From a virus (lineage: Duplodnaviria; Caudoviricetes): a stretch of 55,896 bases of DNA. Under the pieces are notes generated by a model, which made no database searches, had not been told where the DNA came from, and worked only from the letters and a program-made list of their open reading frames with translations. The stretch spans positions 1-55,896 of IMG/VR virus record IMGVR_UViG_3300032233_000817; one strand, 5' to 3'. Position numbers and translations under genes: made by a program. Numbering within the stretch: the stretch's first letter is position 1; every line of letters starts with the position of its first letter. Shown in pieces: positions 4,631 through 11,135 of the stretch.

Positions 4631-6172
4631 TTATATTGCGTATAATCTGTTTCGTGAACTTCTAAATCCTGGTATATCTTCAGCTTCATCACTAGGTAAT
4701 CTAATAAAGCCACCTTGTCTAAACCTCATTAATGCTAGTGTCGTGCTGTCCACCAAGTCATCATTCGCACCGCTAGGAAAATCATTACATTCTTCTATGA
4801 CTTCTTTTGCCCACCGTCTATCAGGTGCCCATACTATACCACTTCTAAATAAATCAGAAATTGCATTGACTCGACTGATCTTATCTTGTCCTTTACCTGG
4901 TGTAAATTCACCAATAGGTAGCCCCATTCTGCGCATTTCTTGATAAAGTGCGGCTCCATTAGACTTTTTTTCTACCATAAACGCATCGGGCTCCCATTCC
5001 TTGTACTCAGCTAGTACAAGTTCTTTGAGATCAGGGAATTCTAATCGTTTTTTAATTGAATTTAGCAATATTATATTATAGTTATTGACTTCTTCGTTAA
5101 AAAAGACGCCCCAAGTTGTTAAAGCGTTGTAATCTGCCCTATTATTTGTTTCTTGTGCCGCATCTAGGCTCATAATAGTGAATTCGCAATCGGGAGGGTC
5201 TTCTTTTTCCCATATTTTCCACCATTCTCTTTTAATTAAAGCGCCTTCTTCTGATACTGGGTTTTGTAAGTACTGCGCATTCCAATATCGTGTATCTAGT
5301 GCAGCTTTTTTAGCCAGTAATTCTTCTAAACTCCAAAATTCTGGCCATAATGGTTTTTCAGTCCCGTTTTTATCTTCAATAATAGCAGGAAACTCAATAA
5401 CTTCCCACTCATCTACGCCTTCTTGCTTTATCATTTGATTAACTATTTGGCCGGTTAAGTCTAGCTTAGACCAACGAGTCATAACTACAATGATCGCACC
5501 GCCTGGCATAAGACGTTGAATTGGACCAGACTGAAACCACTCCCAAGCAGGGAGAAAAACATCAGCTCTTCCAAGTTTAGCATCCTGTTCAGAGTGTGGG
5601 TCATCAATGATAAACAAATCAGCCCCACGACCAGCGAGGGCACCACCCACACCAATAGCAAAATATTCTCCATTAAAATTTGTTCCCCATCGTGAAGCAG
5701 ATTTACTGTCTGCTTGTAGTTCTACTGTCGGAAAAATATTCTTATACGCGTCTGAGCCCACCAAGTTACGGACACGACGACCAAAACTAACCGCCAGATC
5801 AGCTGTGTGAGACGCCATAATAACCTTTTTGTGAGGAAATTTACCGAGGAACCATGCAGGCGCAAGATATGAAATAAGCTCTGACTTACCATGTCTCGGT
5901 GCAATGTTAACAATAACTCGTTTCTTCTTTCCCGCAGCAATATCTTCAAATATCTTAGCCAACCTTGCATGATGCTCTCCTACCATATATCCTGGATAAA
6001 CGTGATGTATAAAATCTAAAAAAGTTTCTTTACCAGACTTCTCAACGACTTTGCTTGTATATACTTTAAGAAGTCTTTGAAGTTTAACTTTGTCTGCTGG
6101 CTCCGCTATTTGAAAGAGCGCCTCTAGTTCCTCAATTTCTTTTTTAGTTATTGTTAGTTTTGGTTCTAGCAT
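4631..6172 (-). CDS. terL: Terminase large subunit
   Basis: Walker A APRHGKS, Walker B FIIDDP, VMTRW coupling motif, RNase H-like C-domain (SLD...DDLVD). Confidence 0.95.
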   Translation of the reverse strand: MLEPKLTITKKEIEELEALFQIAEPADKVKLQRLLKVYTSKVVEKSGKETFLDFIHHVYPGYMVGEHHARLAKIFEDIAAGKKKRVIVNIAPRHGKSELISYLAPAWFLGKFPHKKVIMASHTADLAVSFGRRVRNLVGSDAYKNIFPTVELQADSKSASRWGTNFNGEYFAIGVGGALAGRGADLFIIDDPHSEQDAKLGRADVFLPAWEWFQSGPIQRLMPGGAIIVVMTRWSKLDLTGQIVNQMIKQEGVDEWEVIEFPAIIEDKNGTEKPLWPEFWSLEELLAKKAALDTRYWNAQYLQNPVSEEGALIKREWWKIWEKEDPPDCEFTIMSLDAAQETNNRADYNALTTWGVFFNEEVNNYNIILLNSIKKRLEFPDLKELVLAEYKEWEPDAFMVEKKSNGAALYQEMRRMGLPIGEFTPGKGQDKISRVNAISDLFRSGIVWAPDRRWAKEVIEECNDFPSGANDDLVDSTTLALMRFRQGGFIRLPSDEAEDIPGFRSSRNRLYAI

Positions 6173-6794
6173 TTTCTACAATTTCTGCATCTATAATTTG
6201 GCTTTTAGGTTTTAACACTGCCTTCGCTTTTAATTCTTTTAGCATGGATAGCAATTCGGTTTCAACTTCTTCCATCGTCTCCATTTTGTATGTAATTTCA
6301 GTTTTTCTTTTAAACGCATCAACGCCATCGATTTCACCAATAGCTCTTAGGGCTGCAATTTTATCTCTGTCGGTTTTAGCCCCGGCAACTAATTGGACAA
6401 AATTGTTTACCACAAAAAGTTTAAGGTCTGCAAGTTCTTCCACAATCATACAATTAGTTTGTCCTACAAGCCCAGCTAAAAAAGCCATTGTCTCATTAGG
6501 ATATTCACCAAATTCATGTTTTAATTTTTTATTCACCATCATTTCACGGGCAAGTTCTTTTGCTTGCTCCTGATGTTCTCGAGATGGCTGGATATCTTCG
6601 CCGTTTAAATCGGCAAGCGTTTTAATTGTGTTTATTCGGATATTAAGCTCTTTTTCTGGCGTCATATCGGGGTGACTTTGTTTAGAACTTGAAGGCATAG
6701 CCATATTTTTATCAATTGCGGGTAAAACAACAGCGGCATCAAATAGATCGCTTTTGTCTGCAGGAGATAAAGTAGGAATTTTTAGCTTACTCAT
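6144..6794 (-). CDS. Hypothetical protein, candidate terminase small subunit
   Basis: Helical protein overlapping the terL start; assigned by position only; start uncertain (6794 or 6848). Confidence 0.45.
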   Translation of the reverse strand: MSKLKIPTLSPADKSDLFDAAVVLPAIDKNMAMPSSSKQSHPDMTPEKELNIRINTIKTLADLNGEDIQPSREHQEQAKELAREMMVNKKLKHEFGEYPNETMAFLAGLVGQTNCMIVEELADLKLFVVNNFVQLVAGAKTDRDKIAALRAIGEIDGVDAFKRKTEITYKMETMEEVETELLSMLKELKAKAVLKPKSQIIDAEIVENARTKTNNN

Positions 6795-6879
6795 GTGTCG
6801 CTGATACACCTTTGAAATTAATTGCAGCTTTACTTGCGATTGTAACATAGTTTATATGAAAACAAGGTAGAATATATAA

Positions 6880-7224
6880 ATGAAAACTACATTAACTAAG
6901 AAGAACTTAGAGATACTCTACAACATGGCCTGCCAAATGCCGCCTTTTAATAGACTTCCTATGCCCAAATCTTCTAAAGTTAAGTTTAAAGTCATTAAAA
7001 ACCCCAATATATACGGTTGCTTTGATGAACATGAGATGGAAATTCAAATAAGTTCTAACGCTTGTGGGCATTTCACTACTATTTTTCAAACCCTCCTCCA
7101 TGAGATGGTCCATTTAGCTCTTTACGTTCGGGGCGATGAAGACTTCCATGAACATGGTCCTAAATTCCTTCGTATTAAAAACGTCTACTCCGAGCTTTAC
7201 AACTTCGATCCTAAAGCAATCTAG
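6880..7224 (+). CDS. SprT-like zinc metallopeptidase
   Basis: TLLHEMVH (HExxH) followed by HGPKF, the SprT signature. Confidence 0.85.
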   Translation: MKTTLTKKNLEILYNMACQMPPFNRLPMPKSSKVKFKVIKNPNIYGCFDEHEMEIQISSNACGHFTTIFQTLLHEMVHLALYVRGDEDFHEHGPKFLRIKNVYSELYNFDPKAI

Positions 7225-7348
7225 TTTTTTGTATAGTATATTACGCATTTTTTGCGATGCTACGGCGTAGCTATGATTAAATGCTATACAAATCTCGTTG
7301 TATGTAATATTCCTTTGTTTCTTCTATACAAACTTTATTCCCGCCGTA

Positions 7349-7450
7349 CAAAAGGTTAGACCCACCAGAGAGGATGGCAGGTCTAAATAATAATATGCGT
7401 TACCACGAGAGAGGAGGGTAACACGAGAGAAGCACCCAACACATACTATT
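7349..7450 (-). ncRNA. Candidate small regulatory RNA with two CU-rich (anti-Shine-Dalgarno) loops
   Basis: Hairpins at 7397-7424 and 7358-7384 pair fully only on the minus strand (G-U wobbles); upstream TTGCAA-18-TATAAT promoter; no ORF in the track. Confidence 0.55.
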
Positions 7451-7456
7451 GCCGCA

Positions 7457-7486
7457 ATTATACTCATCTTTCAGAAATTTTTGCAA
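7457..7486 (-). promoter_or_regulatory. Leftward sigma70-type promoter
   Basis: TTGCAA (7486-7481), 18-bp spacer, perfect TATAAT (7462-7457). Confidence 0.6.
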
Positions 7487-7629
7487 AATATTTTTTTATT
7501 TGCCCTTTATAAAACATAGGGGGGTGGGTTTCTATATTCCATTTTTTGTTCGGTGATTTATGCATATTCAAATGTATAGGCGAACGTCGGAGTCCCAAAG
7601 CATTTTGGGGTGGTGGGCGTACGGTGGGG

Positions 7630-7658
7630 TTGACATATATGTAAAGTTAGGGTATTCT
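7630..7658 (+). promoter_or_regulatory. Early promoter of cassette 1
   Basis: TTGACA-17-TATTCT; spacer ATATGTAAAGTTAG shared with the next three promoters. Confidence 0.85.
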
Positions 7659-7701
7659 GGTTTCATGCCTAGTAAGTTCTAGGTACACACGGAGAAACAG
7701 A

Positions 7702-7914
7702 ATGAAACTATCACACAGTCAAGTATTGTTACTAATCAATACAATCAATCCAACTGTAGAATACTATGGGGAACTCAAAGATGATGTAAGTATGGATCGA
7801 TACATCGAGTTACTAAAACTACAGGAACAACTTGAGAAGTTCTACATGCAAGAGATAGGTAAGGCTCAGATTAGGATTCAGGCTAAGAGTAAGATGCAAT
7901 GGAGAACAATATGA
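7702..7914 (+). CDS. Early hypothetical protein (cassette 1)
   Basis: 70-aa ORF with CACGGAGAA leader. Confidence 0.7.
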   Translation: MKLSHSQVLLLINTINPTVEYYGELKDDVSMDRYIELLKLQEQLEKFYMQEIGKAQIRIQAKSKMQWRTI

Positions 7915-8063
7915 GACAAACAATTAGATTCTTAGAAGGTCTAGTCATGTTAATGGTTGGTGGTATTGCATTGTTTTATCTACATCTGCCAACAGGTGCG
8001 GCGTTGTGTGTAGTAGCTGCGTGTATGTATTTTTATTTAGGACTGACCGAAGAAGTAGAGTAG
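7911..8063 (+). CDS. Small two-helix membrane protein (50 aa, cassette 1)
   Basis: MRQTIRFLEGLVMLMVGGIALFYLHLPTGAALCVVAACMYFYLGLTEEVE; GGAG RBS; ATGA overlap; below the ORF-track cutoff. Confidence 0.7.
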   Translation: MRQTIRFLEGLVMLMVGGIALFYLHLPTGAALCVVAACMYFYLGLTEEVE

Positions 8064-8077
8064 TACCGTGTGGGATT

Positions 8078-8106
8078 GGGAAGGCTTCGGTCTTCCCTTT
8101 CTTTTT
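8078..8106 (+). terminator. Intrinsic terminator, cassette 1
   Basis: GGGAAGGC-TTCG-GTCTTCCC plus T tract. Confidence 0.9.
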
Positions 8107-8110
8107 ATGG

Positions 8111-8129
8111 GAACGGGTATCAAAGGGCT
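8111..8129 (+). repeat. 19-bp cassette-boundary motif, copy 1
   Basis: GAACGGGTATCAAAGGGCT. Confidence 0.95.
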
Positions 8130-8150
8130 AATAGCCAGCCAAAAAATTAG

Positions 8151-8179
8151 TTGAGTAATATGTAAAGTTAGAGTAGTAT
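8151..8179 (+). promoter_or_regulatory. Early promoter of cassette 2
   Basis: TTGAGT-17-TAGTAT. Confidence 0.8.
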
Positions 8180-8215
8180 AGTTCTGTAGTACTTTTTAAT
8201 CACGGGAGAATTAGA

Positions 8216-8422
8216 ATGGATAATTTCACAGCAGTTGGAATCGCAGAAGGCTTTATTGAATGTGACGACCGAGAAGAAGTTTTAGCAGCGTGGCAACACC
8301 TAGTTGACACCGGTCTTGCGTGGAGTTTGCAAGGGTGGTTTGGTCGCATGGCCACAAACTTAATCGAACAAGGTTTAATTACACAGGGAGAAAATGATGG
8401 GTCAATATCACAAAGTGTATAA
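8216..8422 (+). CDS. Conserved small phage protein (cassette 2)
   Basis: 68 aa, AWQHLVDTGLAWSLQGWFGR motif; CACGGGAGAA leader. Confidence 0.75.
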   Translation: MDNFTAVGIAEGFIECDDREEVLAAWQHLVDTGLAWSLQGWFGRMATNLIEQGLITQGENDGSISQSV

Positions 8423-8729
8423 CGTAGATAAAAGAGAATACATCGAGCCTCATGAGATTAACAACGGCCTAAAGTTAGTTGAGCAAATAGGATATGAGCA
8501 TTCAACATCGACAGCCTTATTCTTATTACTTGCTAACTCTAATGGGCGTGGTGGTGGTGACGTTGAAGACCATGAATTCATAGGTCGTTGGGCGGGTGAC
8601 CGCATTGTAGTTCAAGGCGACTATGCAGAGGCGGGAGACCAAGGTTACATCTACAACCCAGAGCAATACATTAACATAAGTTCAGACATAGACCATATGC
8701 TTAAAGTTACTATGGGACAGACTGCATGA
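8394..8729 (+). CDS. Conserved phage hypothetical protein (cassette 2)
   Basis: MGQY..VN.DK.EY and GRWAGDRIVVQGDY motifs; GGAG RBS. Confidence 0.75.
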   Translation: MMGQYHKVYNVDKREYIEPHEINNGLKLVEQIGYEHSTSTALFLLLANSNGRGGGDVEDHEFIGRWAGDRIVVQGDYAEAGDQGYIYNPEQYINISSDIDHMLKVTMGQTA

Positions 8730-8733
8730 AATC

Positions 8734-8759
8734 GGGAGCTTCGGCTCCCTTTCTTTTTT
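8734..8759 (+). terminator. Intrinsic terminator, cassette 2
   Basis: GGGAGC-TTCG-GCTCCC plus T tract. Confidence 0.9.
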
Positions 8760-8763
8760 GTAA

Positions 8764-8782
8764 GAACAGGTATCAAAGGGCT
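8764..8782 (+). repeat. 19-bp cassette-boundary motif, copy 2
   Basis: GAACAGGTATCAAAGGGCT. Confidence 0.95.
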
Positions 8783-8804
8783 TTAGACGAGCCCAAAAAT
8801 AAAG

Positions 8805-8833
8805 TTGACTAATATGTAAAGTTAGAGTAGTCT
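8805..8833 (+). promoter_or_regulatory. Early promoter of cassette 3
   Basis: TTGACT-17-TAGTCT. Confidence 0.8.
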
Positions 8834-8871
8834 AGTAAATGCAGTATCTTTTAAACCACGGGAGAATCAAA

Positions 8872-9102
8872 ATGGAAAAGAAAACTTTAGCAGCACCCTT
8901 CGATGGCTTGTACATCGGATCAGAACCAGAAGTTATCAGCAACCCCTACTCAGGTGCAAGTGTGCTACTAGATCCTCTAGCAGTCGCGGTGTATGACACC
9001 ATCAAGGGCGCCGAGGTCATCGAGGATTATTCAAGGGTCCGCAAAGGACTGGAGTGGTTTCGAAAACATTATCCAGAAGAGTATATGGTTTTACTTGACT
9101 AA
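8872..9102 (+). CDS. Early hypothetical protein (cassette 3)
   Basis: Start set at MEKK after the CCACGGGAGAA leader; C-terminal WFRKHYPEEYMVLLD. Confidence 0.75.
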   Translation: MEKKTLAAPFDGLYIGSEPEVISNPYSGASVLLDPLAVAVYDTIKGAEVIEDYSRVRKGLEWFRKHYPEEYMVLLD

Positions 9103-9108
9103 GAGAAT

Positions 9109-9131
9109 CGGGGGGCAACCCCCGTTTTTTT
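9109..9131 (+). terminator. Intrinsic terminator, cassette 3
   Basis: CGGGGG-GCAA-CCCCCG plus T7. Confidence 0.9.
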
Positions 9132-9135
9132 ATGG

Positions 9136-9154
9136 GAACGGGTATCAAAGGGCT
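9136..9154 (+). repeat. 19-bp cassette-boundary motif, copy 3
   Basis: GAACGGGTATCAAAGGGCT. Confidence 0.95.
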
Positions 9155-9175
9155 AGAGGCGTGTCACTCTATCGC

Positions 9176-9204
9176 TTGAGTAATATGTAAAGTTAGAGTA
9201 GTAT
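9176..9204 (+). promoter_or_regulatory. Early promoter of cassette 4
   Basis: TTGAGT-17-TAGTAT, identical to the cassette 2 promoter. Confidence 0.8.
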
Positions 9205-9240
9205 AGTAATTGCAGTATTTTTAAACCACGGGAGAACAGT

Positions 9241-9498
9241 ATGAACATTCAAGGATTTACAACACCACACAGCATCGAGATGTATCGCATGACAGTAATT
9301 CGCACAGCTATCAAGATCTATTTGGGAACTGGGATAAAAGTTAACAGGATGTATACACCAGGTAATATGGTTCGAGCTGTCGCTCAAAAGACAGGCAAGA
9401 CTTACAAGAGAGGTAAGGTCGGTATGACTGAGGCATTCAATGATCTAGAACAATGGATTCTTGATAACAAAACTTTAGGCAACGAGGTTCCGCTATGA
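9241..9498 (+). CDS. Early hypothetical protein (cassette 4)
   Basis: 85-aa basic ORF, CCACGGGAGAA leader. Confidence 0.75.
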   Translation: MNIQGFTTPHSIEMYRMTVIRTAIKIYLGTGIKVNRMYTPGNMVRAVAQKTGKTYKRGKVGMTEAFNDLEQWILDNKTLGNEVPL

Positions 9499-9710
9499 AC
9501 AACTATTTAAACGAAAAGACTTATATTATCCAATGCCAAAGTGACAGCGATCTATTATGGTGCAATGAGTTTGGGTGGATTGATGATCTATCCCAGGCGG
9601 ATAAGTTTTCAGAGTTTGAAAAGGATACTTTAAATCTTCCGATAGAAGGTCAATGGGTAGAACCACATCAATATTTTAAAAGAGATAATCATGAACTACT
9701 TAGTGTTTAA
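9495..9710 (+). CDS. Early acidic hypothetical protein (cassette 4)
   Basis: 71 aa, ATGA overlap, GAGG RBS, LLWCNEFGW motif. Confidence 0.7.
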   Translation: MNNYLNEKTYIIQCQSDSDLLWCNEFGWIDDLSQADKFSEFEKDTLNLPIEGQWVEPHQYFKRDNHELLSV

Positions 9711-9755
9711 AGCAGTGCTACAAAGTATGCAGTATGAACTTAGTAAAAATAAAGA

Positions 9756-9778
9756 GGGGGCTTCGGCTCCCTTTTTTT
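9756..9778 (+). terminator. Intrinsic terminator, cassette 4
   Basis: GGGGGC-TTCG-GCTCCC plus T7. Confidence 0.9.
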
Positions 9779-9782
9779 CAAA

Positions 9783-9801
9783 GAACAGGTATCAAAGGGC
9801 T
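9783..9801 (+). repeat. 19-bp cassette-boundary motif, copy 4
   Basis: GAACAGGTATCAAAGGGCT. Confidence 0.95.
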
Positions 9802-9822
9802 ACAAGCAAGTCATTAAATAAC

Positions 9823-9850
9823 TTGACATATTATTTAAAACAAGTAAACT
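9823..9850 (+). promoter_or_regulatory. Early promoter of cassette 5
   Basis: TTGACA-16-TAAACT. Confidence 0.7.
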
Positions 9851-9876
9851 AATAAGACATTCACGAGGGGACGCAA

Positions 9877-10548
9877 ATGTATATACCAATTATAGAATTT
9901 AAAACTAAAAAAGAGACCGTTGAGGTTATCGGCGGGGAACTACGCAACAATAAAAAAATGCCTTGTAAAACTTTCAACCTTTCCGCCTGGCATTGCAAAA
10001 CTGGGGGACTATTAGCCAGTATTCCTGGGACGATCTGCAACGAGTGCTATGCTAGGCAAGGTCACTATGCTATTTACAGGGAAAACCATGCACCGGGCTA
10101 TGACACCAGGCTTAAAAATGTGGATTCCATTTACTGGGTAGACGCCATGATTAAGCAAATAGGCACGGATGAGTATTTCAGGTGGTTTGCTTCGGGCGAT
10201 CTGCAAAGTTTAGAGATGCTAGAAAAGATTGTACTTATAGCCCGGGCGTTACCTAACACTAAATTTTGGTTACCAACACACGAACCTAAGTTTATAAAGA
10301 TGTGGCTTACTAAACACCAACAAGAATTTCCTGAGAATCTGATCATACGAATAAGCGCCGTTTATATTGATAAACCTTCGACGCTTATAAAATCACTGCA
10401 AGGCTACAGAAACATTTTAACAAGTACAGTACACACCATAACACCCATAGGCAAAGATTGTAAGGCGCACGATCAAAATGGCGAATGTAGAAGTTGCCGG
10501 GACTGCTGGGACACGGATGTTAAAAATGTATCGTATCTTGCGCACTAG
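9877..10548 (+). CDS. GP88-family Cys-rich phage protein (cassette 5)
   Basis: C...CxxCYA, YFRW..SGD, FWLPT, C-terminal CxxCRxCW motifs. Confidence 0.75.
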   Translation: MYIPIIEFKTKKETVEVIGGELRNNKKMPCKTFNLSAWHCKTGGLLASIPGTICNECYARQGHYAIYRENHAPGYDTRLKNVDSIYWVDAMIKQIGTDEYFRWFASGDLQSLEMLEKIVLIARALPNTKFWLPTHEPKFIKMWLTKHQQEFPENLIIRISAVYIDKPSTLIKSLQGYRNILTSTVHTITPIGKDCKAHDQNGECRSCRDCWDTDVKNVSYLAH

Positions 10549-10565
10549 CTCACCCCCGTGGGACT

Positions 10566-10595
10566 GGGAGGACTTCGGTCTTCCCTTTCTTTTTT
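10566..10595 (+). terminator. Intrinsic terminator, cassette 5
   Basis: GGGAGGAC-TTCG-GTCTTCCC plus T tract. Confidence 0.9.
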
Positions 10596-10599
10596 GTGG

Positions 10600-10618
10600 G
10601 AACAGGTATCAAAGGGCT
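10600..10618 (+). repeat. 19-bp cassette-boundary motif, copy 5
   Basis: GAACAGGTATCAAAGGGCT. Confidence 0.95.
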
Positions 10619-10639
10619 TCAGGCGTGTCGCAACATTGA

Positions 10640-11135
10640 GTTTTCCGTAAGTCATTGATTATCCTCATGTTCCACCTCTGTTCCACTTTCTGTTCCAGTT
10701 TCTGTTCCATGTTTCGAAAGTTAACCCCTTGTTTTCATTGGCTTGTTCCAATGTTCCAGTGTTTTTTAAGTATGCACAAGGTTTTTGAGATTCTTGGAGG
10801 TCGAGAGGTCAAGTATTGCAGTGTAAAACTTTACTTACCCCATAAGTGTAAAGTCTCAAAGACTTTCATACCTAAAAAACACTGGAACATTGGAACTGCA
10901 CACTTTTTAACCACTACTACCACTATAATATAATATAATATAATATATATAATATAAGGACTTACGCATTTTCGACACACCGAAGTTATCCACAATTTCT
11001 GTGTAAGTTTACATATGGAACAGACCAAAAAACTGGAACAGAGGTGGAACACGCTAACCCCTTGATTTTAAACGCTTGTTCCACTTCCTGTTCCAACTTT
11101 CATACTTTTCCTCCACCATATGTAAACCTTACCTT
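10640..11135. repeat. Putative replication origin: TGTTCCA iterons, nested inverted repeats, AT-rich core, DnaA box
   Basis: 8 TGTTCCA and 4 TGGAACA copies; 30-bp IR 10745-10774/10867-10896; 18-bp IR 10668-10685/11034-11051; (TAATA)n at 10924-10957; TTATCCACA at 10986-10994. Confidence 0.7.

What the first reader, a model, noticed from the sequence alone, without database searches (positions are those of the whole stretch)
7349..7486. Candidate sRNA complementary to the shared leader of the cassette genes
Seen: a leftward TTGCAA-18-TATAAT promoter precedes ~100 nt with two hairpins, GUGUUACC/GGUAACGC and AGACCUGCCA/UGGUGGGUCU. Both need G-U pairs, which points to the minus strand. Loops are CUCCUCUCUCGU and UCCUCUC. 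The RNA carries UUCUCUCGUG (7431-7422) and UCUCUCGUGG (7412-7403), each able to form 10 contiguous pairs (one G-U) with the (C)CACGGGAGAA leader of cassettes 2-4. It also has CCUCCUC, complementary to the GAGGAGG sites of the downstream early operon. Inference: a trans-acting translational silencer of the early region. Any gene placed behind the standard leader would come under its control, making sRNA plus array one regulatory system.
Basis: partly seen in the sequence, partly recalled or inferred. Interest (0 to 1): 0.87.

Follow-up and report, generated by a model that had tools for sequence, protein, structure and literature searches.

The report
Conserved short leftward RNA unit in phage
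A lake phage carries a very well conserved promoter, 100-base folded RNA and stop signal between its early genes and its packaging genes; it is a believable small-RNA gene, but its proposed role as a silencer of the early-gene leaders is not shown.

Summary

For:
- Seven further metagenome contigs and one IMG/VR contig carry the element almost unchanged, with 1-3 differences in 105 nt. The adjacent SprT-like gene differs at 47-57 of 231-345 positions.
- The conserved stretch ends just past the U-tract.

Against:
- There is no covariation and no RNA cover.
- Pairing to the cassette leaders is not robustly better than to other ribosome sites. Their ranks among 87 start sites are 2/4/15, 10/28/72 or 13/17/25, depending on the method.

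The -35/A-tract half of the promoter is a block conserved upstream of terS in 40 of 59 related loci. The hairpin module occurs only in this clade.

Best reading: a promoter-proximal, terminated short RNA at the head of the leftward packaging operon. A trans anti-Shine-Dalgarno role remains possible. It is a new member of a known kind, of moderate interest.

The parts
7469..7497 (-). A-rich block AAAAAAATATTTTGCAAAAA..., which contains the -35 hexamer. It is the only part shared with distant relatives.
   Evidence: blastn and regex found it in 40 of 59 terS loci, upstream of terS on the terS strand, 164-1135 nt away.
7457..7486 (-). Sigma-70-like promoter TTGCAA-18-TATAAT
   Evidence: 10 of 12. 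Both hexamers are invariant in 9 copies, with one spacer change at 7468 in L074.
7389..7450 (-). 5' domain of the predicted RNA (nt 1-62, start at about 7450 inferred). It has a long-range helix nt 1-13/50-62 and an inner helix nt 14-19/29-35.
   Evidence: Minimum-energy and suboptimal folds. All 19 pairs are invariant.
7422..7431 (-). CU motif 1, UUCUCUCGUG, in the apical loop
   Evidence: unpaired probability about 0.7-0.9. It forms 10 bp with one G-U to CACGGGAGAA.
7403..7412 (-). CU motif 2, UCUCUCGUGG, preceded by CCCUCCUC. It is a direct repeat of motif 1.
   Evidence: It forms an 11-bp helix to ACCACGGGAGA at 8855 and 9225. The G-to-U change at 7403 in L075 is tolerated.
7356..7386 (-). 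Terminator-like hairpin with a 12-bp stem (2 G-U) and a 7-nt loop AUCCUCUCU region carrying CU motif 3 (7368-7374)
   Evidence: Hairpin energy is -15.9 kcal/mol. Of 12 pairs, 11 are invariant and the terminal pair is lost in 2 of 5 distinct rows.
7346..7355 (-). Tail CCUUUUGUAC. The conserved module ends here.
   Evidence: The variable positions are 7346 and 7347. Three different junction sequences follow in the relatives.
8199..8210 (+). Leader of cassette 2 (AUCACGGGAGAA), a proposed target that overlaps the ribosome site
8855..8866 (+). Leader of cassette 3 (ACCACGGGAGAA), a proposed target
9225..9236 (+). Leader of cassette 4 (ACCACGGGAGAA), a proposed target
6880..7224 (+). SprT-like metalloprotease gene, convergent with the RNA and lying between it and terS
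   Evidence: Pfam PF10263, 31.6 bits against a cut-off of 25.6
6144..6794 (-). Small terminase-like gene, the first gene of the leftward block. Its likely true start is the ATG at 6794, not 6848.
   Evidence: Relatives match from residues 8-18 onward, and the upstream AGCTGCAA...AAGGTG...ATG/GTG is shared.
7630..7701 (+). First early promoter (TTGACA-17-TATTCT) and leader 1, part of the same conserved intergenic module

Best explanation
This is a small leftward transcription unit at the boundary between the rightward early genes and the leftward packaging and structural genes.

Proposed mechanism:
1. Host sigma-70 RNA polymerase starts at about 7450 on the minus strand (inferred). The promoter is near-consensus, and its -35/A-tract half is a block that this phage family keeps upstream of terS.
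2. The polymerase transcribes a 62-nt 5' domain and a 12-bp hairpin followed by CCUUUUGU.
3. Most transcripts stop there, giving an RNA of about 100 nt (inferred).

Its first job is in cis, as a promoter-proximal terminator. It stops a strong constitutive promoter from running antisense into the convergent SprT-like gene and, too early, into terS. Read-through or antitermination would feed the packaging operon (inferred).

The released RNA displays three unpaired CU-rich motifs, so a second job in trans on ribosome sites is possible but not shown.

Shown: the sequence anatomy, strand asymmetry, clade distribution, strong conservation and the sharp conservation boundary. Inferred: transcription, termination and any function.
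For: - Promoter-like and terminator-like sites lie in the right order and on the right strand. The fold has z -2.99 on the minus strand against -1.72 on the plus strand. All five G-U pairs need the minus strand. The A-run lies on the side that makes a U-tail only for leftward transcription.
- The block holding the -35 lies upstream of terS on the same strand in 40 of 59 loci, and 24 of those 40 are within 164-234 nt. In L006-L009 and L028-L029 it is followed at 17-18 nt by TAGACT and then an ORF a few bases later, so it reads as a leftward promoter there too.
- No other site reaching the scan's threshold lies between 7345 and the terS start on the minus strand.
- Conservation in 8 related contigs is 1-3 differences in the 105-nt RNA and 2-8 in the 356 nt from 7346 to 7701. 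This compares with 47-57 of 231-345 in SprT, 23-38 of 651 in terS, and 13-18 of 115 in the non-coding 7225-7339 of L075 and L072. Fisher p values range from 1.8e-6 to 2e-18.
- The conserved stretch ends 3-6 nt past the U-tract, with three different junctions beyond it.
- Promoter-proximal terminators that give short RNAs under 250 nt are documented in virulent phages. PMC10914365, section 20 (read), reports 42 terminators in 5'UTRs, 34 of them with two modes of read-through.
Against: - There is no transcript evidence. Lake metatranscriptome contigs did not cover 7340-7473, which proves nothing either way.
- The whole 360-nt intergenic region is equally conserved, so the constraint cannot be assigned to the RNA alone. 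A recently exchanged mosaic module would look the same.
- L074 shows no jump in divergence at 7225-7339 (1 of 115).
- The U-tract is short and set off by CC, unlike the GC-stem, long-T terminators of the early cassettes.
- A plain insulator needs only the hairpin. The 62-nt 5' domain with its repeated UCUCUCGUG is left unexplained.
- Most relatives lack a -10 at the right spacing after the block, so the block may not be a promoter everywhere.
- An activator-dependent late promoter nearer to terS would escape a consensus scan.
Confidence: 0.4

Rival explanations
1. The RNA of about 100 nt is a trans-acting translational silencer. Its exposed CU-rich motifs pair with the CACGGGAGAA leaders of cassettes 2-4 and with the GAGGAGG ribosome sites of the early and middle operon, and so block ribosome binding.
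For:
- Helices of 10-11 bp with one G-U cover the ribosome site of leaders 2-4. They are matched or beaten by only 13, 3 and 11 of 500 dinucleotide shuffles.
- CACG followed by purines occurs 8 times in the window against 2.2 expected: 4 in cassette leaders and 2 in the element.
- With bare seeds the leaders rank 2, 4 and 15 of 87, and 27 of the top 30 start sites are + strand genes. With accessibility correction, 10 of the top 12 are + strand genes.
- The leader motif and the element occur only in this clade. L010 and L018-L020 have other leaders and no element.
Against: - The leaders rank 10, 28 and 72 with cofolding and 13, 17 and 25 with accessibility correction. Leader 1 ranks 58-59 of 87.
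- The corrected energies of -7.9, -6.7 and -5.4 sit near the 5th percentile (-6.7) of random coding windows.
- By energy, 94, 18 and 36 of 500 shuffles do as well.
- Leaders 2-4 are copies of one sequence, so they count as one test, and it was chosen after the fact.
- The predicted energy tracks general ribosome-site strength (Spearman 0.60).
- Covariation is not possible. Co-occurrence is confounded by descent.
- One promoter would have to titrate several strong early promoters.
Confidence: 0.2
2. The element works as DNA, not RNA. The three direct repeats (YCTCTCTCGTGK-like at 7403-7431 and 7364-7375), the imperfect inverted repeat, the AT-rich linker and the A-tract block form a protein-binding region. 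This could be a replication origin, a packaging recognition site or an operator set at the divergent control region.
For: - The whole intergenic region 7340-7704 is near-invariant, including 7498-7629, which shows no significant fold (z -0.41 and -1.87).
- The region sits at the minimum of cumulative GC skew and at the switch of gene strand.
- The block lies next to terS across the family.
- The repeats resemble the leader motif on the + strand, so one protein could recognise both.
- The replication genes are T7-like, comprising a polymerase, a primase-helicase and a gp2.5-like protein.
Against: - All five stem mismatches are G-U on one strand, and the tail suits only leftward termination.
- The minus strand folds better than shuffles while the plus strand does not clearly do so.
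- The repeat module is absent from all other clades that keep the block.
Confidence: 0.15
3. The element has no function of its own. A promoter-like and a hairpin-like site meet by chance inside an intergenic module that looks conserved only because it was recently exchanged among these phages by recombination.
For: - There are 22 promoter-like sites of the same quality in the window, and terminator-like sites occur at about 0.8 per 1.4 kb in shuffles. About one chance pairing per genome is therefore expected.
- Flanks change abruptly at 7340 and 7704, as at mosaic joints.
- There is no covariation.
Against: - Eight contigs with 5-20% divergent flanks all keep the module within about 2%.
- The left joint falls exactly at the end of the terminator tail.
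- CTCTC is enriched about 100-fold, and the motif is duplicated within the element.
Confidence: 0.12
4. The stretch codes for a small protein: either the 47-codon ORF at 7467..7324 or a 14-codon ORF starting at nt 7 of the RNA.
For: Both frames are open.
Against: - There are no Pfam or PHROG matches.
- The ATG at 7467 lies upstream of the -10.
- The C-terminus of the 47-codon frame is replaced in L062, L068, L069 and L070 by unrelated junction sequence.
- The frame has no ribosome site.
Confidence: 0.03

Closest known systems
Promoter-proximal terminated short RNAs (5'UTR-derived ncRNA candidates) of virulent Pseudomonas phages (PMC10914365, section 20 read)
   Same: A promoter is followed within 250 nt or less by a terminator, giving an abundant short structured RNA or, on read-through, a long mRNA. 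These RNAs are conserved among close relatives and their function is unknown.
   Different: Those RNAs were mapped experimentally, and this one was not. Here a convergent gene (SprT-like) lies between the terminator and the operon that read-through would serve.
Lambda late promoter, its promoter-proximal terminator and the short 6S transcript, released by Q antitermination (recalled from textbook knowledge, not from a call)
   Same: A constitutive promoter just upstream of the packaging and late operon, a short terminated transcript, and late genes reached only by read-through.
   Different: No Q-like gene or binding site was sought or found. There is no sequence relation. The weak U-tract and the intervening reversed gene have no lambda counterpart.
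C4 antisense RNA of phages P1 and P7. Citron and Schuster 1990 was seen only as a citation and in passages of PMC8201110; the Rfam family accession is recalled.
   Same: A small phage RNA that controls translation of phage genes through short complementary stretches at a ribosome site (mechanistic detail recalled).
   Different: No Rfam family, C4 included, matched 7150-7750 even at E up to 10. C4 acts on one downstream operon of a temperate phage, not on repeated early leaders.
C-rich anti-Shine-Dalgarno sRNAs of Firmicutes such as RoxS/RsaE and RNAIII (PMC8216469 and PMC5499838 seen in a search listing only; mechanism recalled)
   Same: Several pyrimidine-rich motifs are exposed in loops and can pair with purine-rich ribosome sites of many mRNAs.
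   Different: Those are host RNAs with experimentally defined targets. The motifs here are CU repeats extended by CGUG. There was no family match.
PeSL promoter-terminator cassettes of T4-type phages (PMC2839356 and PMC4122927, listing and abstract starts seen)
   Same: The target side resembles them. Repeated terminator-promoter-leader units flank small variable early genes and mark points of gene replacement among relatives.
   Different: No small RNA partner is described for PeSLs in what I saw. This phage is not T4-like.

Membership tests
Independent bacterial or phage sRNA gene (generic definition) | Own promoter and intrinsic terminator on one strand in an intergenic region | tested here: met
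   TTGCAA-18-TATAAT and a 12-bp hairpin with CCTTTTGT lie on the minus strand, between two + strand genes. These are consensus matches only.
Independent bacterial or phage sRNA gene (generic definition) | A discrete transcript of the predicted size is detected | tested here: inconclusive
   Contigs of four RNA runs did not cover 7340-7473. Contigs cannot show ends or strand.
Independent bacterial or phage sRNA gene (generic definition) | Structure supported by compensatory changes | tested here: inconclusive
There are 9 copies and 5 distinct rows.
Independent bacterial or phage sRNA gene (generic definition) | Sequence conserved beyond the neighbouring DNA | tested here: met
   1-3 of 105 positions differ, against 47-57 of 231-345 in SprT and 13-18 of 115 in 7225-7339 of L075 and L072. 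The rest of the intergenic region is equally conserved.
Trans-acting anti-ribosome-site sRNA | Accessible seed complementary to the ribosome site of its targets | tested here: met
   Motifs 1-3 are unpaired. Helices of 10-11 bp cover GGGAGA of leaders 2-4.
Trans-acting anti-ribosome-site sRNA | Pairing to the proposed targets exceeds pairing to other start sites and to controls | tested here: not met
   Ranks are 2/4/15, 10/28/72 and 13/17/25 of 87 by three methods. Corrected energies lie near the 5th percentile of random coding windows.
Trans-acting anti-ribosome-site sRNA | Repression of targets, lost and restored by compensatory mutation | not testable with these tools
   This needs a reporter assay.
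Promoter-proximal terminator or attenuator of the leftward (packaging) operon | Lies between the operon's promoter and its first gene, on the same strand | tested here: met
   The promoter block is upstream of terS on the same strand in 40 of 59 loci. In the window no other site reaching the scan's threshold lies between 7345 and 6795. The SprT-like gene intervenes.
Promoter-proximal terminator or attenuator of the leftward (packaging) operon | Two transcript forms, short terminated and long read-through | not testable with these tools
   This needs strand-specific end mapping.
Rfam families (all 4227, including phage antisense RNAs) | Covariance-model score at or above the gathering threshold | tested here: not met
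   There were 0 matches in the window at gathering score. The best match in 7150-7750 scored 16-17 bits against thresholds of 36-48.

The most novel reading that the evidence does not exclude
A lytic lake phage encodes a ~100-nt RNA whose three exposed CU-rich motifs imitate the ribosome's anti-Shine-Dalgarno sequence, two of them extended by CGUG to match the standard early-gene leader. The RNA accumulates from a constitutive promoter and progressively shuts off translation of the strong-ribosome-site early and middle genes. The weak-site late genes escape. Any gene that recombines in behind a standard leader cassette is enrolled automatically. The same unit gates leftward transcription into the packaging operon, so one element would couple early shut-off to late turn-on.
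Probability: 0.13. Interest if true: 0.75.

Novelty: new member of a known kind. Interest (0 to 1): 0.42.

Why it matters
Small RNAs of lytic phages are few and mostly without known function. An uncultured lake phage clade keeps this one almost unchanged while its neighbouring genes drift by 15%, and the conservation boundary marks the RNA's predicted 3' end. That makes it a well-defined candidate for experiment. If it gates the packaging operon, it would show a host-polymerase late switch by termination control in a poorly known phage group. If it silences ribosome sites, it would link a regulatory RNA to mobile promoter-leader cassettes. If neither holds, it is one more promoter-proximal terminator of an ordinary kind.

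Tried and rejected
- **RNA evidence.** One search found 6 runs with small shares of 0.05-0.10. Contigs of 4 lake or freshwater metatranscriptome runs (X1, X2, X3, X6) were laid on 6000-10000. They covered parts of terS, SprT, 7503-7704 and the early genes. None covered 7340-7473. Contigs show neither strand nor ends, so this counts neither for nor against a transcript.
- **Rfam.** Nothing at gathering score in the whole window. Only chance-level matches at E 1.3-8.9 in 7150-7750.
- **Phage GenBank collection.** blastn of 7200-7720 gave no match.
- **IMG/VR pattern scans.** The hairpin-1 pattern hit the known relative and one site inside a coding region (L063), which I read as chance. The hairpin-2 pattern hit the known relative and four unrelated terminator hairpins, L064-L067. 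The block-plus-seed pattern hit only the known relative.
- **Metagenome and genome scans.** The metagenome scan gave 9 stretches; L071 and L073 are chance matches. The hairpin-1 pattern on genome contigs gave 0 hits, so there is no host or prophage copy.
- **Genome-wide RNAduplex scan**. It was uninformative because large interior loops inflate every energy (mean -13.9); the leaders were not among the top 40. The list of contiguous helices showed dozens of 10-12-bp helices by chance.
- **Origin of the leader-like + strand motifs.** I tested whether they are a decayed cassette. Local alignments to six cassettes scored 16-19, within the shuffle range of mean 14-16 and maximum 21-29. Rejected.
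- **Analogous modules after the block in other clades.** Among 30 distinct loci sequences plus the window, only the window has clustered CU motifs and a strong hairpin with a T-run. L023 and L035 gave weak hits of -8.4 and -7.5 kcal/mol.
- **Coding reading.** The 47-codon ORF was rejected. I ran no further search on it.
- **Not done.** Supplementary files of papers were not consulted.

Full report
**Context.** The window is a 55.9-kb IMG/VR virus record, estimated 88% complete. Genes run leftward from terS (6144-6794/6848) through TerL and the portal. They run rightward from 6880 through many small early genes to a T7-like replication set: polymerase, helicase, exonuclease, gp2.5-like protein and primase-helicase. 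TerL is about 50% identical to those of Pelagibacter phage HTVC027P and similar phages. Close DNA relatives appear in lake and freshwater data.

The finding lies in the 477-nt gap between a SprT-like gene (6880-7224, + strand, Pfam 31.6 bits against a cut-off of 25.6) and the first early gene at 7702. Relatives align to terS only from residues 8-18 onward and share the sequence just upstream. The true terS start is therefore probably the ATG at 6794.

**Observation.** All stated features are present:
- The promoter scan finds TTGCAA-18-TATAAT at 7486..7457 on the minus strand.
- The terminator scan finds a 12-bp hairpin at 7386..7356 with tail CCTTTTGTAC.
- The minus strand folds at -33.5 kcal/mol, z -2.99, with 1 of 200 shuffles as good. 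The plus strand gives -22.7 and z -1.72.

It pairs nt 1-13 with nt 50-62 and nt 14-19 with nt 29-35, and then forms the terminator hairpin at nt 65-95. In both folds the three CU-rich motifs are unpaired.

CTCTC occurs 4 times in these 105 nt against 33 times on both strands of the window. TCTCTCGTG occurs only here, twice, as a direct repeat.

Promoter-like sites of equal score number 22 in the window. The promoter match alone is therefore weak evidence.

**Distant relatives.** A terS search gave 59 IMG/VR loci. In 40 of them a block AAAAAAATATTT(T/C)GCAAAAAA lies upstream of terS on the terS strand. In 24 of the 40 it lies within 164-234 nt of terS.

What follows the block differs by clade:
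- a small hydrophobic ORF and then terS;
- a TAGACT hexamer at 17-18 nt and an ORF starting a few bases later (L006-L009, L028-L029);
- a reversed SprT-like gene (L034, L045, L047-L050).

The TATAAT, the CU-rich 5' domain and the hairpin occur only in the window and its 99% relative. The module is thus a clade-specific addition behind a family-wide element that sits at the head of the leftward genes.

**Close relatives.** A pattern anchored on the block and one seed found 7 metagenome contigs with the element, plus 2 chance hits. Together with the IMG/VR relative this gives 9 copies and 5 distinct sequences.

Within the RNA only five positions vary: nt 48, nt 64, nt 65 and the last two tail bases.

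No pair changes on both sides, so covariation cannot speak.

Conservation, by contrast, is striking:

| Region | Differences |
|---|---|
| RNA, 105 nt | 1-3 |
| 7346-7701, 356 nt | 2-8 |
| SprT | 47-57 of 231-345 |
| terS | 23-38 of 651 |
| 7225-7339 (non-coding), L075 and L072 | 13 and 18 of 115 |
| 7225-7339, L074 | 1 of 115 |

Fisher p values are 1.8e-6 or lower for the contrasts other than L074. The conserved stretch stops 3-6 nt past the U-tract, beyond which three different junctions occur. This fits a functional unit ending at the predicted RNA 3' end. It equally fits a recombination joint, and the remaining intergenic DNA up to the first early start codon is just as conserved.

**Target tests.** The leaders CACGGGAGAA are real (8201, 8857, 9227). 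They belong to repeated terminator-promoter-leader cassettes.

Evidence for some specificity:
- Motifs 1 and 2 form 10-11 contiguous pairs with one G-U.
- Dinucleotide shuffles of the RNA reach these helix lengths in 13, 3 and 11 of 500 trials for leaders 2-4. For leader 1 the figure is 487 of 500.
- By energy the counts are 94, 18, 36 and 198 of 500.

Ranking against 87 crude start sites:

| Method | Leader ranks (order c3, c4, c2) |
|---|---|
| Bare seeds | 2, 4, 15 |
| Cofolding | 28, 10, 72 |
| Hybrid energy plus opening energies | 13, 17, 25 |

In the third method the energies are -7.9, -6.7 and -5.4, close to the 5th percentile (-6.7) of 73 random coding windows. The best predicted partners are other + strand genes with GAGGAGG-type sites. 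Predicted pairing tracks ribosome-site strength (Spearman 0.60), and + strand genes have the stronger sites (median -7.8 against -5.5, p 6e-5).

A general anti-ribosome-site activity stays open.

The + strand of the element shows no homology to the cassettes beyond the short motif. The leader motif is limited to the clade that has the element, but that is one lineage and so not independent support.

**Interpretation.** The most economical reading is a promoter-proximal terminated transcript at the head of the leftward operon. The promoter half that is conserved family-wide belongs with terS. In this clade the promoter has a perfect -10. It points into a convergent gene and, 560 nt further on, into terS, and no other scan-level promoter intervenes. 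A terminator directly behind such a promoter would be needed to protect SprT and to keep packaging genes off early. Read-through would supply them later.

Short RNAs made this way are common in virulent phages (PMC10914365, section 20 read). This reading leaves the conserved, repeat-bearing 5' domain unexplained, which keeps three alternatives alive: the trans-acting model, an RNA-based read-through control, or a DNA-level role such as an origin or operator.

My odds:
- cis terminator/leader unit: 0.40
- trans anti-ribosome-site RNA: 0.20
- DNA-level element: 0.15
- no function: 0.12
- small protein: 0.03
- something else: the remainder

**Comparison and novelty.** No Rfam family matches. In working logic it resembles three known systems:
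- lambda's late promoter with its short terminated transcript (recalled);
- the P1/P7 C4 RNA (citation seen in PMC8201110; mechanism recalled);
- the C-rich anti-ribosome-site sRNAs of Firmicutes (listing only).

It is a member of none of them by sequence. The target-side cassettes resemble PeSLs of T4-type phages (PMC2839356 and PMC4122927, listing and abstract starts). I file it as a new member of a known kind, a phage promoter-proximal short RNA or sRNA candidate, of moderate interest because of its exceptional conservation and clean boundaries.

**Limits.**
- The host is unknown.
- Gene starts for the ranking were called crudely: ORFs of 45 codons or more on the block strand, with the start chosen by best ribosome site.
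- The transcription start is inferred from the -10.
- The metatranscriptome data were contigs only.
- Supplements of papers were not seen.

Noticed in passing
window 7469-7530 (minus); loci L005-L055: A family-wide non-coding block, C-run ... TACTTTAC ... AAAAAAATATTT(T/C)GCAAAAAA, lies upstream of terS in 40 of 59 related loci. Most relatives lack a -10 at the right spacing, so it may be a regulator, packaging or origin site rather than, or as well as, a promoter. Several contigs end within a few hundred bases of it.
   Followed up: partly
window 6794-6848 (minus): The terS ORF extends to an ATG at 6848. Relatives align only from residues 8-18 and share the AAGGTG...ATG/GTG context, so the real start is probably the ATG at 6794.
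   Followed up: partly
window 6868-6882 (+): The SprT-like gene has a TAGAAT hexamer 6 nt before its ATG and no ribosome site, so its mRNA may be leaderless. The ORF after the block in L006-L009 and L028-L029 shows the same layout (TAGACT, then ATG 7 nt later).
   Followed up: no
window 8070-10640 (+): There are five copies of a cassette: a GC-stem terminator, the conserved 21-mer GGGAAC(G/A)GGTATCAAAGGGCT, then a TTGAC-type promoter with the conserved spacer ATATGTAAAGTTAGAG, and in three copies the CACGGGAGAA leader. Relatives swap the genes between cassettes, in the manner of PeSLs.
   Followed up: partly
window 10679-10896: A 30-nt inverted repeat, 97% complementary (10745-10774 / 10867-10896), and four TGTTCCA-type direct repeats (10679-10767) lie downstream of the last cassette. 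This may be an operator or origin.
   Followed up: no
window 7225-7339: A 115-nt non-coding segment with a GCTACGGCGTAGC hairpin is present in the window, L072, L074 and L075. It is absent from L062, L068 and L070 and replaced in L069. Part of it recurs in the distant relative L045.
   Followed up: partly
loci L011-L025, L035-L044, between the block and terS: A conserved small ORF of about 23-30 codons with a hydrophobic product lies directly upstream of terS in the relatives that lack the SprT-like gene. It starts MENIHIYIV... in L017.
   Followed up: no
L076:941-1020: One relative carries a leader variant, CACGGGGGAA. It would still pair with motif 1 through an extra G-U.
   Followed up: no
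window 7498-7629: These 130 nt between the block and the first early promoter are as conserved as the RNA (0-4 differences in 132). They show no significant fold and have no assigned feature.
   Followed up: partly
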